A stretch of DNA of 64,000 bases from contig NC_047030.1 of assembly GCF_902652985.1 (NCBI RefSeq), forward strand, positions 22,444,001 to 22,508,000, read 5' to 3'. This DNA is from Pecten maximus (lineage: Eukaryota). A program made the position numbers. Positions 6,001 through 55,600 of this stretch are shown here, one piece after another. Position 1 is the stretch's first letter; the number at the start of each line of letters is the position of its first letter.

Positions 6001-9000
6001 GCGATGCACATACATCAAAAGATAAAAAGAACTTTTGAGAGTTTGCTTGTCCCTTTTTAAACTACAAGTTGCAGGAATAGGCATATCATTCATTATTGAT
6101 AAACAATAATCAAACATCAGCACATTTGGCCCAGTTTGTTGCTGAATAACTTTTCGTGACTACATAGGTAGGTAGATGTCTTTGTACCTACTTTCTTTTG
6201 TTACTATTTGAACATGTGATAACCAATGTATTTTATAGCCCTCCATCTCCATCGTTAACATACATATACAATACTAGACAACGATTGTTGCTTATGTCCA
6301 AAACCAACCCTTTTTTACTGGTTTCTGTAATTATTAACTTCACAGTAATAGTATTTAATATGTCGTGTTTCCACAGTGATTCCATGGTGATATGGCTGTT
6401 GGGGATAGCTGAGGTTTACACTGTGTATACTTGTTAGAACATAACAATGGTTATACATGTAATAAAGAAGAGGCCGTGCATAAAATATTGGCTCCAACTC
6501 TTTGCAGGTATTACAATTATTCATGATAAGAACTATTACTATATCTCCCTTTACTGTTTTACAGTTGCGAGTGTAAATACATTTGTATTGTGAAGAACTA
6601 CGCCATTGATTCTCACATTATATCATATTCTCCCATTATGTTACATTCTCGCATCACATTCTCATATAATATCACATTCTCACATTACTATATCATATAC
6701 GCACATTGCATCACATACATTATATCACATTCTCACATTATATCCCATTCAAGTTGGAATCAATGAAACTAACAAATATCATCTGCTTTGTTTGTCCATG
6801 AACTGGACCAGTTTATCATCAATAAGCGCCTTATAAAAAAATAAGTGCACAAGCCGCCTGATTCTGCCAAATCCTACGATGGCCGATATCAGCCGTCACG
6901 TTACTCGCATTTATGTGATGCGAGTAACCTGACATAGTAAAAATCACATGACGGGTTACTAGCATGTGATGCGAGTAACCTGACATAGTAAAAGTCACAT
7001 GACAGGTTACTAGCATGTGATGCGAGTAACCTGACATAGTAAAAATCACATGACAGGTTACTAGCATGTGATGCGAGTAACTGTACACAGTCGCGAATGA
7101 GATGACTGTACACTTACAAAACCCATTAATATTCCAGAGTATAGTTTTACTAGACCTTTCAAAAGAGGTTATCATGGCGACTGTAGACAATGGTTTTATA
7201 AGCCAAGGTGTGGCATGTATATACAATGGAGCTCGTGTAGTCTTGTCAATTCATTATTTGACCACAGACTATTTTTTTTTTGCAACAGATTTTTTTATTT
7301 TATTTTTCCTGTAGATTGGTATATTTATGTGATAGAAAAAAAATGCCCTAAATGGGGGAAATGGTTTTATTCACCAAATAGAATTGAGGAAATAAGAGAA
7401 ATTGACCAATAATATACTCTTGAGTGACATTGGACGAGAGATTTTGTATGCAACACAAATAGACTAAAATAATCAATTGGAACCATATGTACTATACTGT
7501 ACAAAGCCACCTGTCATGTGATTTTTACTACGTCAGGTTACTCGCATCACATGCTAGTAACCTGTCATGTGAGTTTTACTATGTCAGGTTACTCGCATCA
7601 CATGCTAGTAACCTGTCATGTGATTTTTACTATGTCAGGTTACTCGCATCACATGAGAGTAACCCGTCATGTGATTTTTACTATGTCAGGTTACTCGCAT
7701 CACATGCGAGTAACCCGTCATGTGATTTTTACTATGTCAGGTTACTCGCATCACATAAATGCGAGTAACGTGACGGCTGATATCGGCCATCGTAAAAATA
7801 ACATACATGTGAGCTTATCAGAGCTTTGGAGGGAGTGAATATGACTGATTTAGATTTTCATAATAGGTCTCATGTATATTAAGAATCTGAGAATTTCGAC
7901 AAATTATTTAACAAAAAACACTGGTAAAATCCCTAACTCGCGCCCCAGCGTGATGCCTATTTTTATATATTCAGAATTAGTTACTAATGTTTTAAATATG
8001 CCCATTAATAATCAAAATAACTAAAAAAGTCATCACTTGAACTGTCCTATTCTATCATGATCCTGTAAATCGTCAAAGTGGAATAAAGCATCCGTGTCAA
8101 GTCCCTGTGTCAGGCGGTCGTTACCTCGCATCCATTATAAACAATTTATACCAGGAAGATCAATTGATCAAAATGGACAATCAGTAAACATTCAATCAAT
8201 GAAGCTTTGCTTTCAGTCAGTTGTAGAGCCCGTGTCAAAGTTACAACCAACTCTGTAACATATTTCGCAAAGATGGCTGTTCAGTTCGAATCAGACACCC
8301 GGAGAACAAAATCTAGTTATTACTCTTCCGCGCAGCTGACGGAGCGTTTTTATAATGATCTCTAAACTCGTTAAACAAATCAATTTTGCAACTTAATTAT
8401 GCTATTTTTAAAATGTTATATAGTAAATGTGCTGCCTTATCGTATTTTTGTGTATTTAATACAGATTAGTCATTCTCTCATGGCGGACTATTTTTAAACA
8501 CAAACCATTAGACTTCCACAAATTTTAGTATTTAAAGATTTCTTAAATTAATTAAGTGCAAATGCGTGTTAACTCAAATATAAGGATTGCATGTTGCTTC
8601 GGTCGATTGCATGGGGTGATGAGTTGAGTTGCTCTTGAGACAAATTCAACGTGAACTGCTTCGCGGTGAATTCATCTCAAAGACACCTCTAGACTAACAT
8701 TTAATCATTAAATGTCAGTACCATGGTATCATTTAACAAGTATCCTACCTACGATAATTTTACGACATTAAGACGAAAGAAGATTGTATATGCGTGAATA
8801 CAAAACTGTAAACTACTAAACTTTTATTTACACACGTCATCGGATAATATACCTTTAAATAGCGAGCTCCACTACATATTCTCAGTAGTCTCATGACATA
8901 TCACTTCGCCGATACTGGAACCACTCGGACAACCAGAAAAATGAATGACATTGCCACCTCCAAACTTCTATTCCGGAGTATTATGAAGGGACATTATAAA

Positions 9001-52600: not shown

Positions 52601-55600
52601 ATTGTTATAGAATGGTTGTTCAAGAAAAGGCATCCTTGAATGGGACTTTGAAGAACTTTAAAGAGGGTTTGAAGAATTCTTGACATCTGCTTCTGAGGAA
52701 GTATCTTCGAATTAAATACCTACAAATTGGTCAATGAGGCTTTTTGGACTGAAAACAATTCCACCCCTCTTCATTCCGATGGACTCCATCAACATACATC
52801 GTTTTATACAACAATCTACTTCATACCACAAAAGAAATCCTACAATGTGGATGACAATTGTTGGACCACATTGATGACGTCATGGCTAGACCACCGAAAT
52901 GATGACGTCACATATGGCCTAATTAAGGGAGGATGCTGTCTCCGAAACGTAGCCAGCAAAGATAATTCATTTGATTATTTTTTCTATGTTTATTTAGTTG
53001 TGTTAATAAGTGAATTAGCAGTGTATACTTATGCTGTCGGTGGTGTAATTTCTAAGAAAAACCCAAAGGCCTATAGGACTCAATGCTCACCTGATTGGTT
53101 AAATATTGCACTAACCTATAACAAGCCACATACGTCTAGAAACTAAGATATCCTGAAAGGAAATACAGATAAAAACATTGTTTGCATGCTTTACATTTAA
53201 TGTCAGCTTGTTAAAACGTGGTGAAGTCCGAGTTCGATTTCTTATTTTCTTACCTAAATGACTCGCCTTTTTAAACATATGCTATCAATAAATACACAAG
53301 GTGACAGTCTCGTAAAAATACTTATAGTCATCTTTGTGTTTTCTACACTATGGTGGTATACTGGTATAAAATGCGCCATGCTAGAATAATTATTGTTCTT
53401 TTTTTTCAGAAGACGGTGTGTCTTTTGCAACCCATTCATATTATTACCTATTTAAACATAACACATCCTTGGAGGGAATTCTGTCGAATACCCACTAAAG
53501 GAATAAAATTGTCATGCAATTTATATTTTGTTCTAATACTGATGCTGAATTAGCCATCTAATGATGAGCTTTTCAAAATATTTCTGATGATAATACTTTT
53601 CATGTTTCTATAACAAATTGTCATCTTGTATAAGAGATCACCTTTTCAATTCCATTTAAACTGCAGATACCTCCATTCGAATAAAGACAGATAGTGTAAT
53701 TAAATTAAGAGAAAAAAGAATTTAAAATATTTTAACCCCCCCCCCCCCCCCCCCCAAACACCGCAAAAGAAAAAAAGTTAAAAAGAAAAGAAAAGCAAAA
53801 AAGGGAAATAAAAATCCAAACTGCTTGCTGTATGTATCAACGGATAATATTGAAGAATATTCCATGTTTATTTTAATATATGATAAGTGAAATAACGTAG
53901 GTCACAGTTTACATTAGCTGCTGCTAGTGGAGGACCTATTACGTATATCGGAAACAAATCCTAAATTGAAGTTGTTGAATACATTACTAAATATATAAGC
54001 AAAGAAACGTAGAACGATACTAAATACGAACATCTACAAAGGGTCAAAAAACCCAACACGTCACTTCTTGTTCAGTAGAGAAAGGAATCGTTATACACGG
54101 CTGCGTAAAGCTAGCAGATATGAACTCTGTGACAGATTAATAAAATACAAAGGGATAGGTGGAAACGTTTCGTAATGCTATCAGGTTTAAACCATGCGGT
54201 TAAAGTCGCAGTCTCCTCATATCCATACATACCAATTTTATCAAAATGGACAATATTTAACATTGACCTAATCAGAGGCAAAGGACAGCCAACGGTGGCC
54301 ATTTCGTTGAAATGTGAAACTTCGGTTACGAAAGAGACCAGTGTCCTATGATGTATATACATTTAATAAAAATCGATTAATATTTAAATTTCGACCAATC
54401 CGAGGACAGGAAATAGCGGCCATCTTAAGGGTATATTGCACACCTCCGACGATTGCGAGCATAGCAGAAGTCTTGGATCTTTTTAAAAGCTTGTTGTATT
54501 ACAATACACCTTCAAGCCAAGCTTCATCAAAATCAGACAATATTTAACTCACGATTTTATTGATTAGTGAATACATCAACACGAATTATTATATATATAT
54601 TCCTTCAGTATAAATTAAAAAACACGGCAACCATTGCTTCGCTTATTATTTCATATCTTAATCTATTATCCATGTCCATACAATTGTACTTGATCATCAC
54701 AGCTACGACAATAGTTACAACATTTAGACGTAATAAAGTCGCGTATATGCGTGAATACAAAACTGTGAACAACTTTTGATTAATGCAAGTCATCGGGAAA
54801 TACACATTCAAATATCGAGTTCCACTATATATTCTCTGAAATCTCATGTCAGCCCGATATGCCGATATTGTAACCATCGGACAACCAGAAATATGAATGA
54901 CAGCGCCACCTCTGAACATCAACTCGATAGTATTATGAAGGGGCATTATAAATTAGTTAACATATTGGTGAACGGGGAGCTGATATCAACAACACTGACA
55001 AGGATTGAAAAATTCCTCTGATGAAGACTTGTCTAGATTCAAACATATCATAAATATCAACCACAGATACATCATCTTCCAGGTAAAGTATTGTGTAATA
55101 TTGTGTGATAATGACGATATTTTTAATTCTAGACAAGCCTTCAGAGCCGTTTGTCCATCCTTATCAGTGATGTTGATATCCCGTCCACCAATACCTTTTC
55201 TGATTTATAATGTCCCTTTATGATACTCTGGAATAGCAGTTTGAAGGTGGCACTGGCAATCATATTTCTTGTTATCCGACAGGTTATTATATCAGCAAAG
55301 TCATATGGAATGAGACTAAAGAGAATATCGTATTGTAATATTTCAAGCTTCTTAAGAAGACGGGGGAGACTTCTGTACTAGCGGTGGTCGGAGGTGTTCA
55401 ATGGACTGTTAATTGTCCGATCACCCAACCAAGGTGGTCGCTATTTCCTGTCATCTGATTCGTCGAAATTTAAATATTTTTGATGAAATTTGGTATGCAA
55501 ATTTATTTTATGAAACACTGGTCACTTTCGTAGCCCGCAGTTTGCAGTCCTATAATTGGTTGAATTTGAATATTGTCCATTTTGATGAAATTGGTATGTA

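What the first reader, a model, noticed from the sequence alone, without database searches (positions are those of the whole stretch)
8893..55325. Birth-and-death array of truncated ANKRD34-like ankyrin genes
Seen: three intact 253-aa ORFs and at least six fragments of different ages within 47 kb. Known (from memory): a second ankyrin repeat with an insertion between TPLMxAC and KxVxYLL, in an intron-less CDS, is typical of ANKRD34, which has four repeats. Here similarity stops at the start of repeat 3 and continues as an unrecognised polar tail. Inference: a lineage-specific two-repeat derivative under repeated amplification, possibly a decoy or tissue-specific adaptor.
[Added by the scan's program, not by the reader: the finding's places include an assembly gap (unread letters, written N; its length is only estimated) at 13082 to 13581, 47523 to 47622. 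Whether the letters on both sides are continuous or in frame is not known: test that first.]
Basis: partly seen in the sequence, partly recalled or inferred. Interest (0 to 1): 0.65.

Follow-up and report, generated by a model that had tools for sequence, protein, structure and literature searches.

The report
Local cluster of short ankyrin genes
A small, lineage-restricted ankyrin-repeat gene has been copied several times within 47 kb, leaving three readable copies and six decayed pieces; this is an ordinary young gene cluster, and its proposed link to ANKRD34 could not be shown.

Summary
There are three intact 253-codon ORFs on the + strand (8893-9654, 30291-31052, 49686-50447). There are six decayed pieces from four independent events, two of them re-duplicated. 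No ORF or piece touches either N run, but each intact ORF lies on a different contig of the scaffold. A and B (99.2% identical) could therefore be two haplotypes rather than two genes.

The protein is a true ankyrin (Pfam above cut-off; usable model of aa 17-130). It has two canonical repeats, a 17-residue insertion in repeat 2, a degenerate capping repeat to about aa 126, and a polar tail with no detectable family.

The copies arose by DNA-level segmental duplication, with 1.1 kb of shared upstream DNA. ATG, stop and AATAAA are conserved. dN/dS is 0.31 in the ankyrin part (p=0.01) and 0.64-0.69 in the tail, not significant.

The ANKRD34 link is unproven. None of the 25 hits of the named database carries that name. 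An unrelated unnamed protein shows the same insertion gaplessly. The only close relative is one 144-aa model made of two tandem N-terminal units. Expression is untested.

The parts
8893..9654 (+). Intact ORF A, 253 aa (ankyrin aa ~17-126, polar tail aa ~127-253)
30291..31052 (+). Intact ORF B, 253 aa; 99.2% DNA identity to A (3 synonymous and 3 non-synonymous codon differences)
49686..50447 (+). Intact ORF C, 253 aa; 92.6% DNA and 87% protein identity to A, no indel
12287..12553 (+). Old decayed piece (aa 63-156, 36% identity); DNA patches matching 9080-9360
33826..34056 (+). The same old piece in the second copy of the 8-kb unit
41651..41828 (+). Internally deleted copy: 30 bp of upstream DNA plus aa 21-67 (87% DNA identity, in-frame stop), joined directly to the downstream module; 8814-8951 and 9095-10216 are missing
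45666..45851 (+). The same deleted copy in the second unit of the 4-kb tandem duplication (41340-43503 matches 45371-47522 at 97.6%)
54703..55102 (+). Decayed 5' piece (144 bp upstream plus aa 1-86 at DNA level, 80%; frameshift and stop)
55106..55328 (-). Decayed 5' piece in inverted orientation (aa 1-88, 81.5% DNA identity; frameshift); forms an old inverted duplication with the previous piece (arms 77-83% complementary)
4498..12537 (+). 8-kb duplicated unit around A; matches 25968-34055 around B at 95-97% overall and 98.6-99.4% from 7998 to 9997
25968..34055 (+). Second copy of the 8-kb unit (around B)
48607..50686 (+). 2.1-kb core shared by A, B and C (matches 7794-9893 at 92%): 1.1 kb upstream, the ORF and 240 bp downstream
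58137..62075 (+). Fourth copy of the upstream region only (matches 3641-6875 at 93% and 7793-8427 at 97.5%); no ORF; cut off at 62076, where a repeat begins that is also found at 34059 and 57321
9835..9840 (+). AATAAA about 180 nt after the stop, conserved in A, B and C
13082..13581 (.). Assembly gap (500 N) between the contig with A and the contig with B
47523..47622 (.). Assembly gap (100 N) at the end of the second 4-kb unit, before the contig with C

Best explanation
This is a young, lineage-restricted, probably intron-less gene for a small ankyrin protein, multiplied locally by DNA-level segmental duplication and unequal exchange in a repeat-rich region.

The protein has a 16-residue leader and two canonical ankyrin repeats, the second with a 17-residue loop insertion. 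A degenerate capping repeat follows, then about 125-135 residues of polar, probably disordered tail of no known family.

Some copies stay readable and others are cut down and decay, which is the birth-and-death pattern. The ankyrin part is held by purifying selection and the tail much less so. If it is expressed, the protein most likely acts as a small protein-binding module, with the ankyrin groove and the insertion loop as the binding face.

Shown: the copies, their DNA-level origin, the ankyrin fold and the selection signal. Inferred: that it is a stand-alone gene, that it is expressed, and that it binds a partner.
For: - **Copies.** Three intact ORFs and six pieces.
- **Ankyrin identity.** Pfam Ank_4, Ank and Ank_2 match above their cut-offs over aa 24-99 (E 1.7e-10 to 1e-8). 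The AlphaFold model of aa 17-130 has pLDDT 73.7 and pTM 0.67. It shows two helix pairs, a low-confidence loop at the insertion, and a short helix plus a long helix. Foldseek places it on designed and natural ankyrin stacks, with TMq up to 0.65 and rmsd 1.5-2.5 over 85-100 columns.
- **DNA-level duplication.** The copies share 1.1 kb of upstream and 240 bp of downstream DNA. A and B share 8 kb.
- **Gene-like signals.** ATG, the TGA stop and an AATAAA about 180 nt downstream are conserved in A, B and C. An in-frame stop lies 11 codons before the ATG in A and B.
- **Selection between A and C.** dN/dS is 0.50 overall and 0.31 in aa 1-108 (Fisher p=0.015 and 0.0096). There is no indel in 762 nt, against 4 gap openings in 1070 nt of upstream flank. 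Only 13% of simulations with 56 random substitutions keep the frame open.
- **A relative elsewhere.** P0097 is 61-69% identical over the N-terminal unit.
Against: - There are no transcript data of any kind, so expression is unshown.
- The ORF is no better conserved than its upstream flank: 92.6% against 93.7% between A and C.
- The tail shows no significant constraint (dN/dS 0.64-0.69, p=0.24).
- The TATA-like motif before the ATG of A and B is deleted in C.
- The selection test rests on one informative comparison (A/B versus C) and on ORFs that were picked because they are open.
- The window's ORFs did not appear as annotated proteins in the protein database.
- The only relative found is a model built from two truncated copies.
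- A and B may be one locus assembled twice.
- The full-length model was useless (pLDDT 31.8).
Confidence: 0.55

Rival explanations
1. The ORFs are non-functional relics. An ankyrin-derived sequence is carried along passively by segmental duplication, and the three copies are open only because they are young.
For: - A and B differ at 6 of 762 positions.
- The flank is as conserved as the ORF.
- The tail has dN/dS 0.64-0.69 with p=0.24.
- 13% of random-substitution simulations keep the frame.
- Six of nine copies are already broken.
- No annotated protein identical to the ORFs turned up.
- The promoter-proximal motif is not conserved in C.
Against: - dN/dS is 0.31 in the ankyrin part (p=0.0096).
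- The ORF has no indel, while the upstream flank has 4 gap openings in 1070 nt. From the flank rate, the chance of no indel is about 0.1. Combined with the 0.13 chance of no stop, the joint chance is roughly 0.01 (my estimate).
- ATG, stop and AATAAA are all kept in C.
Confidence: 0.22
2. The ORF is the last coding exon of a larger gene whose upstream exons lie elsewhere in or outside the window.
For: - A CAG preceded by a pyrimidine-rich stretch lies 8 nt before the ATG in A and B.
- No promoter can be shown.
- Short exons would escape my Pfam scan.
Against: - That CAG is CTG in C and in the 54.7-kb piece, while the ATG is kept in all four.
- An in-frame stop lies 11 codons upstream in A and B.
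- The relative P0097 begins at the methionine equivalent to M17.
- Of 179 other open frames scanned, none matched a host-gene domain. These were 29 frames of 90 aa or more and 150 of the 178 frames of 60-89 aa. The only hits were remnants of mobile elements.
Confidence: 0.1
3. The unit is cargo of a mobile element (a captured host gene fragment), and the copies are insertions rather than local duplications.
For: - The region is full of repeats. A module of about 600 bp (10093-10700) recurs at 10811, 11625, 12720, 41838, 45862 and 57319(-).
- A foldback element with terminal inverted repeats sits 1.1 kb upstream of A and B.
- Reverse-transcriptase and GIY-YIG remnants are present.
Against: - The copies are collinear with their flanks over 2-8 kb and all lie within 47 kb.
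- I found no terminal repeats bounding the 2.1-kb core.
- The foldback element is absent from C and from the fourth copy, so it is a later arrival and not the vehicle.
- The broken copies are internal deletions of the same unit.
- The genome-wide copy number could not be checked, because no collection holding this genome was open.
Confidence: 0.08
4. A and B are not two genes. They are two haplotypes of one locus placed in tandem by the scaffolder, so the array has two intact copies, not three.
For: - A 500-N gap separates them, and contig 1 ends 63 bp after the A/B homology ends.
- Identity is 98.6-99.4% over the gene and 93-97% in most flanking windows, with many indels. From general knowledge, this is what very heterozygous invertebrate genomes show between alleles.
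- A and B share the foldback element that C and the fourth copy lack.
Against: - To the left, A matches the fourth copy from 3641, but matches B only from 4498. Contig 1 positions 1-4497 have no counterpart left of 25968.
- B carries a 3.6-kb extra segment (34056-37642) inside the shared block.

Both observations fit either reading.
Confidence: 0.3

Closest known systems
Generic ankyrin-repeat domain (Pfam Ank / Ank_2 / Ank_4; consensus-designed ankyrins in the PDB)
   Same: - Sequence matches above the Pfam cut-offs.
- 311 PDB sequences match at E<=0.001, and the best shown are designed ankyrins.
- The model superposes on ankyrin stacks.
   Different: - There are only two canonical repeats plus a degenerate cap.
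- Repeat 2 carries a 17-residue Ser/Thr-rich loop.
- The tail has no family.
- No hit other than P0097 exceeds 34.4 bits for a single stretch, so no particular ankyrin subfamily is indicated.
ANKRD34
   Same: - An insertion in the second repeat.
- An uninterrupted coding frame.
- A long non-repeat tail after a short N-terminal ankyrin block.
   Different: - Two canonical repeats plus a cap, instead of the recalled four.
- The tail is much shorter.
- No hit named ANKRD34 among the 25 hits.
- The insertion pattern is shared gaplessly with an unrelated unnamed protein.
- No direct comparison was possible, because no tool supplied an ANKRD34 sequence.
Very small ankyrin adaptors such as NRARP or myotrophin (recalled, from no call)
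   Same: A stand-alone protein of two to four repeats, whose only plausible activity is binding a partner.
   Different: No sequence relationship was tested or claimed. Those proteins, as I recall them, lack the long polar tail and are single-copy, conserved genes.
Tandem gene arrays evolving by birth and death (general concept)
   Same: Intact and decayed copies of graded divergence lie side by side, and DNA-level duplication includes the flanks.
   Different: The array is small and very young, and its function and expression are unknown. One 'birth' (A/B) may be an assembly effect.

Membership tests
Ankyrin-repeat proteins | Match to the Pfam ankyrin models above the curated cut-off | tested here: met
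   In A: Ank_4 41.3 bits (cut-off 22.7), Ank 39.8 (21.1), Ank_2 36.1 (27.3), over aa 24-99. C is similar.
Ankyrin-repeat proteins | Stacked helix-turn-helix repeats | tested here: met
   The model of aa 17-130 has pLDDT 73.7 and pTM 0.67, with two helix pairs plus a short and a long helix. Foldseek hits are ankyrin stacks, with TMq up to 0.65 and rmsd 1.5-2.5 over 85-100 columns. The alignment had only 6 rows, and two of the five models had pLDDT below 45.
ANKRD34 | Four ankyrin repeats (recalled) | tested here: not met
   There are two canonical repeats and one degenerate capping repeat. Pfam matches end at aa 99 and the model's last helix ends at about aa 126.
   A 17-residue insertion is present. 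It is not specific: P0002 has one of equal length in a gapless 92-residue alignment, and 234 stretches from 88 of 175 fetched proteins span 70 or more of the 96 query positions.
ANKRD34 | Closest named relatives are ANKRD34 proteins (best-hit or tree membership) | tested here: inconclusive
   0 of 25 hits are named ANKRD34. The named ones are tankyrase-2, fungal 'ankyrin 3' and the like. The search needs shared 5-residue words, the unindexed search returns no names, and only the top 150 of its 59,301 hits are listed.
ANKRD34 | Family-specific conserved C-terminal region | not testable with these tools
   No ANKRD34 sequence was supplied by any tool. The tail here has no Pfam match at E<=1 and no Atlas hit.
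ANKRD34 | Intron-less coding sequence (recalled) | tested here: inconclusive
   The frame is uninterrupted, with conserved ATG, stop and AATAAA. There are no transcript data.
Birth-and-death tandem array | Intact and degenerate copies of graded divergence at one locus, duplicated with their flanks | tested here: met
   Caveat: two assembly gaps, and a possible haplotype duplicate (A/B).
Processed retrocopy | Homology limited to the transcript, with a poly(A) tract and target-site duplication | tested here: not met
   Copies share 1.1 kb upstream of the ATG and 8 kb between A and B. I saw no poly(A) tract after the AATAAA. Target-site duplications were not looked for.
Mobile-element cargo | Defined termini (inverted or long terminal repeats) around the unit, and dispersed copies | tested here: inconclusive
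   No termini were seen around the 2.1-kb core, and the foldback element upstream is absent from C. Dispersed copies could not be sought, because no collection with this genome was available.

The most novel reading that the evidence does not exclude
This is a taxon-restricted ankyrin mini-protein that arose recently. An ancestral ankyrin block was cut down to two repeats plus a cap and fused to about 130 residues recruited from non-coding DNA. It is now being amplified and pruned at one locus as a fast-evolving binding module, for example a decoy or adaptor in a lineage-specific pathway. The absence of any relative for the tail, the near-neutral tail beside a constrained ankyrin block and the single close relative do not exclude this reading.
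Probability: 0.15. Interest if true: 0.45.

Novelty: new member of a known kind. Interest (0 to 1): 0.2.

Why it matters
Little beyond annotation. It adds a small, unannotated, lineage-restricted ankyrin gene family to this genome. It also gives a compact example of local duplication, internal deletion and decay.

The practical value lies in three cautions:
- The 'three intact copies' sit on three contigs, and two of them may be haplotypes.
- The ANKRD34 label should not be passed on.
- An insertion in repeat 2 is not a family marker.

If the copies prove to be expressed, the contrast between a constrained ankyrin block and a nearly free tail would make a modest case study in how new small proteins are assembled.

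Tried and rejected
- **Exon boundary at aa 62/63.** Two pieces end or start there. I rejected the idea because DNA-level mapping shows that the 41.7/45.7-kb pieces are internal deletions of the same unit (8814-8951 and 9095-10216 missing). They are not exons.
- **Full-length structure prediction** from the three window copies gave pLDDT 31.8 and was not used.
- **ESM Atlas.** The whole protein gave only generic ankyrin clusters, mostly bacterial. The tail gave no usable hit.
- **PDB by sequence** returned designed ankyrins and generic ankyrin proteins only.
- **The unindexed search of 1.84 billion representatives.** 59,301 hits had E<=0.001. The 150 listed are swamped by giant multi-repeat proteins: 149 of them are 730-5901 aa long with 9-37 matched stretches. 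Only P0097 is a real relative. Single-domain relatives scoring below 131 bits would be hidden.
The origin and naming of P0097 stay unknown.
- **Rfam and tRNA scans** of the window found nothing.
- **Literature.**
  - 'ANKRD34' gave 214 papers. The 20 that I saw as a listing (titles and starts of abstracts only) are expression, methylation or association studies, not family descriptions.
  - 'ANKRD34' plus 'mollus' gave 0 papers.
  - A four-term search on ankyrin tandem expansions gave one coral-genome paper, seen as a listing only and not read.
  - No paper was read, and supplements were not consulted.
- **Not done.**
  - Genome contigs holds only bacteria and archaea and was not used.
  - No collection holding this genome, its transcripts or related animal genomes was available.
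  - No complex prediction was run, because no partner is known.
- **Species and spliced models.**
  - I do not take the window for human: it is 28-36% G+C and I found no close named vertebrate relative.

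
Full report
**1. What is there**

With the standard code and ATG starts, the window has five ORFs of 150 aa or more.
- Three are 253-aa ORFs on the + strand: 8893-9654 (A), 30291-31052 (B) and 49686-50447 (C).
- One (13058-13627) is only the 500-N run read as X.
- One (38884-39582) has no family and lies in a mobile-element remnant.

The window is 28-36% G+C. At that composition an open frame of 253 codons is expected 0.0003 times in the whole window.

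A and B differ at 6 of 762 positions. A and C differ at 56, with no indel.

**2. The pieces**

tblastn with A finds eight further matches at E<=0.001, which make six pieces (alignments).
- 12287-12553 and 33826-34056: aa 63-156, 36-37% identity.
- 41689-41814 and 45712-45837: aa 21-62, 81-86% identity, with an in-frame stop.
- 54878-55044 (+): aa 12-67, with a frameshift and a stop.
- 55311-55058 (-): aa 1-88, with a frameshift.

The first two are one old piece that lies in both copies of an 8-kb unit. The next two are one piece that lies in both copies of a 4-kb tandem duplication (41340-43503 matches 45371-47522 at 97.6%). The last two face each other as an old inverted duplication, with arms 77-83% complementary. 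So six pieces come from four events.

At E<1 there is one more weak candidate, 51119-51024 (-), E 0.035. Another at E 0.60 I do not credit.

DNA identity to A forms a ladder:

| Copy | DNA identity to A |
|---|---|
| B | 99% |
| C | 92% |
| 41.7-kb and 45.7-kb pieces | 87-90% |
| 54.7-kb and 55.3-kb pieces | 80-82% |
| 12.3-kb and 33.8-kb pieces | 80-84%, in patches only |

The description 'fragments of different ages' is correct.

**3. The gaps**

The N runs are 13082-13581 and 47523-47622. No ORF or piece touches them, so no frame depends on what they hide. I did not fill them.

They do matter for the count. The scaffold is three contigs, and each holds exactly one intact ORF.
- Contig 1 ends 63 bp after its homology with the B unit ends (12536-13019 matches 37643-38118).
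- A-B identity is 98.6-99.4% from 7998 to 9997, and 93-97% with many indels in most other 500-bp windows. Two windows are at 82.6% and 88.4%.
- This pattern fits a recent duplication with conversion. It also fits two haplotypes of one locus placed in tandem.
- Against the haplotype reading, A matches the fourth copy from 3641 but matches B only from 4498. B also has 3.6 kb extra (34056-37642) inside the block.

I put the haplotype reading at about 0.3.

**4. How the copies arose**

The copies share non-coding DNA.
- A, B and C share a 2.1-kb core: 7794-9893 matches 48607-50686 at 92%. It holds 1.1 kb of upstream DNA, the ORF and 240 bp of downstream DNA.
- A and B share about 8 kb.
- A fourth copy at 58137-62075 has the upstream region only. 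It is cut off where a repeat begins that also occurs at 34059 and 57321.
- The 41.7/45.7-kb pieces are the same unit with two internal deletions, 8814-8951 and 9095-10216. This disposes of my passing idea of an exon boundary at aa 62/63.
- A module of about 600 bp after the ORF (10093-10700) recurs at 10811, 11625, 12720, 41838, 45862 and, inverted, 57319.

This is DNA-level segmental duplication and unequal exchange. It is not retroposition. I found no termini that would make the core a mobile element, although genome-wide copies could not be sought.

**5. Is it a gene?**

Points in favour:
- ATG, the TGA stop and an AATAAA about 180 nt after the stop are conserved in A, B and C.
- In A and B an in-frame stop lies 11 codons before the ATG.
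- A CAG just before the ATG could be a splice acceptor. It is CTG in C and in the 54.7-kb piece, while the ATG is kept in all four.

A point against:
- A TATA-like motif about 35 nt before the ATG in A and B is removed by a 19-bp deletion in C.

Selection between A and C (Nei-Gojobori; one-sided Fisher tests):

| Part | dN | dS | dN/dS | p |
|---|---|---|---|---|
| Whole ORF | 0.065 | 0.129 | 0.50 | 0.015 |
| aa 1-108 | not listed | not listed | 0.31 | 0.0096 |
| aa 109-253 | not listed | not listed | 0.69 (0.64 for B-C) | 0.24 |

- Random substitution keeps the frame open in 13% of simulations.
- The ORF has no indel, while the upstream flank has 4 gap openings in 1070 nt.
- Against constraint, the ORF (92.6%) is not better conserved than the upstream flank (93.7%).
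- The whole test rests on one informative comparison, and on ORFs that were chosen because they are open.

Other coding sequence in the window:
- I scanned 29 other frames of 90 aa or more.
- I scanned 150 of the 178 frames of 60-89 aa. The 28 left out lie in the B unit, which duplicates A.
- Above a curated cut-off there was only a GIY-YIG domain at 38521-38730 (-).
- Sub-threshold there were a zf-RVT match at 16011-16427 (-), an RVT_1 match at 39856-40152 (+) and two matches (SsdA_C, zf_Tbcl_Rhp7) in 7473-7835 (+).
- So I see no exon of a larger conserved gene, with the caveat that short exons escape such a scan.

Expression is untested.

**6. The protein**

- Pfam ankyrin models match aa 24-99 above their cut-offs. 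Nothing matches the rest at E<=1.
- A model of the whole protein from the three copies failed (pLDDT 31.8).
- A model of aa 17-130 from a six-row alignment gave pLDDT 73.7 and pTM 0.67. Three of the five models scored above 64 and two below 45.
- In ORF numbering, that model has these elements:
  - helices 19-31 and 35-43 (repeat 1);
  - helices 58-68 and 79-89 (repeat 2), with a low-confidence loop at 72-76 inside the insertion;
  - a short helix at 104-106 and a long one at 111-126, which form a degenerate third or capping repeat.
- Foldseek against the PDB returns ankyrin stacks, with TMq up to 0.65 and rmsd 1.5-2.5 over 85-100 columns.
- The tail (aa 118-253) has GRAVY about -1.0 and 27-28% S/T/N/Q. 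It is 28-29% charged, has four cysteines and has small basic clusters at 202 and 214. It has no Atlas hit.

**7. Relatives and the ANKRD34 question**

| Search | Hits at its E cut-off | What they are |
|---|---|---|
| Indexed database, similar length | 2 of 224 candidates (E<=0.001) | Both unnamed |
| Indexed database, longer proteins | 19 of 978 candidates (E<=0.001) | Named ones: tankyrase-2, ankyrin-3, fungal ankyrin proteins |
| Indexed database, aa 17-112 of C, longer proteins | 4 of 90 candidates (E<=10) | Fusarium proteins, three named 'ankyrin 3' |

- None of these 25 hits is named ANKRD34.
- The unindexed search found 59,301 proteins at E<=0.001. Of the 150 listed, 149 are multi-repeat proteins of 730-5901 aa with 9-37 matched stretches.
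- The remaining one is P0097: 144 aa and 65% identity.
- P0097 consists of two tandem copies of the N-terminal unit. The first copy matches aa 17-81 of A and the second matches aa 4-79, at 61-69% identity. This looks like a gene model read through two truncated copies, so a similar array may exist where P0097 comes from.
- Scored stretch by stretch against all 175 fetched proteins, P0097 reaches 78.6 bits. The next best reaches only 34.4. No particular ankyrin subfamily stands out.
- That next best, the unnamed P0002 (232 aa), aligns without a gap over aa 26-117 at 33% identity. The alignment includes an insertion of the same length in the second repeat and the capping helix at its own C-terminus.
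What follows the second repeat is a cap, not the start of a lost third repeat.
- No tool gave me an ANKRD34 sequence, and I may not type one from memory. The direct comparison and the tree were therefore not done.
- The features of ANKRD34 named in this report are recalled, not tested.
- The literature searches gave nothing on the family's structure or evolution. One search was a listing of 20 of 214 papers, one search found 0 papers and one search gave one listing. No paper was read.

**8. Verdict**

Confidence in each reading of what the ORF is:

| Reading | Confidence |
|---|---|
| Young, lineage-restricted, probably intron-less small ankyrin gene, multiplied and pruned by local DNA duplication, with a constrained ankyrin block and a nearly free tail | 0.55 |
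| Passive, non-functional relics | 0.22 |
| Terminal exon of a larger gene | 0.10 |
| Mobile-element cargo | 0.08 |

Independently of these, A and B may be one locus assembled twice (0.3).

This is a new member of a known kind and of low general interest.

**9. What stayed unchecked**

- Transcripts, and genome-wide copies of the core.
- Any named ANKRD34 sequence.
- The closed collections (metagenome contigs, viral contigs).
- The letters under the two N runs.

Noticed in passing
window 6876-7793 (also 28320-29194): A foldback, MITE-like element of about 920 bp. Its arms (6875-7069 and 7600-7794, 97% complementary) are built of 51-bp tandem repeats and end in short perfect terminal inverted repeats. 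It is present upstream of A and B. In C and in the fourth copy a 47-bp stretch stands in its place, so it arrived (or replaced 47 bp) after the split from C and before the A/B duplication.
   Followed up: partly
window 38521-40155: Remnant of a retroelement. A GIY-YIG domain lies at 38521-38730 on the - strand (27.9 bits, above cut-off). There is a weak RVT_1 match at 39856-40152 on the + strand. A 284-codon open frame at 38728-39582 has no family. GIY-YIG together with reverse transcriptase suggests a Penelope-like element (recalled), but the two strands differ.
   Followed up: no
window 16011-16427 (-): A sub-threshold zf-RVT match (E 4.1e-5; 24.6 bits against a cut-off of 27.5). It is probably a decayed non-LTR retroelement between units A and B.
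   Followed up: no
window 10093-10700 and copies at 10811, 11625, 12720, 41838, 45862, 57319(-): A module of about 600 bp with no coding signal. It is repeated three more times in a loose tandem directly after ORF A and accompanies most pieces. It may be the substrate of the unequal exchanges.
   Followed up: partly
window 34059-34550, 57321-57857, 62066-62611: A repeat family with a sharp common start. It abuts different sequences in unit B and in the fourth copy, where the unit breaks off, so it is likely a mobile-element end.
   Followed up: no
window 19519-20185 and 35469-36333: Two unrelated long-period tandem repeats: period 332, 2.0 copies, 98% matches; and period 334, 2.6 copies, 84% matches.
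   Followed up: no
protein P0097: The only close relative is a 144-aa predicted protein made of two tandem N-terminal units of this gene. This hints that a similar array of truncated copies exists in its source genome.
   Followed up: partly
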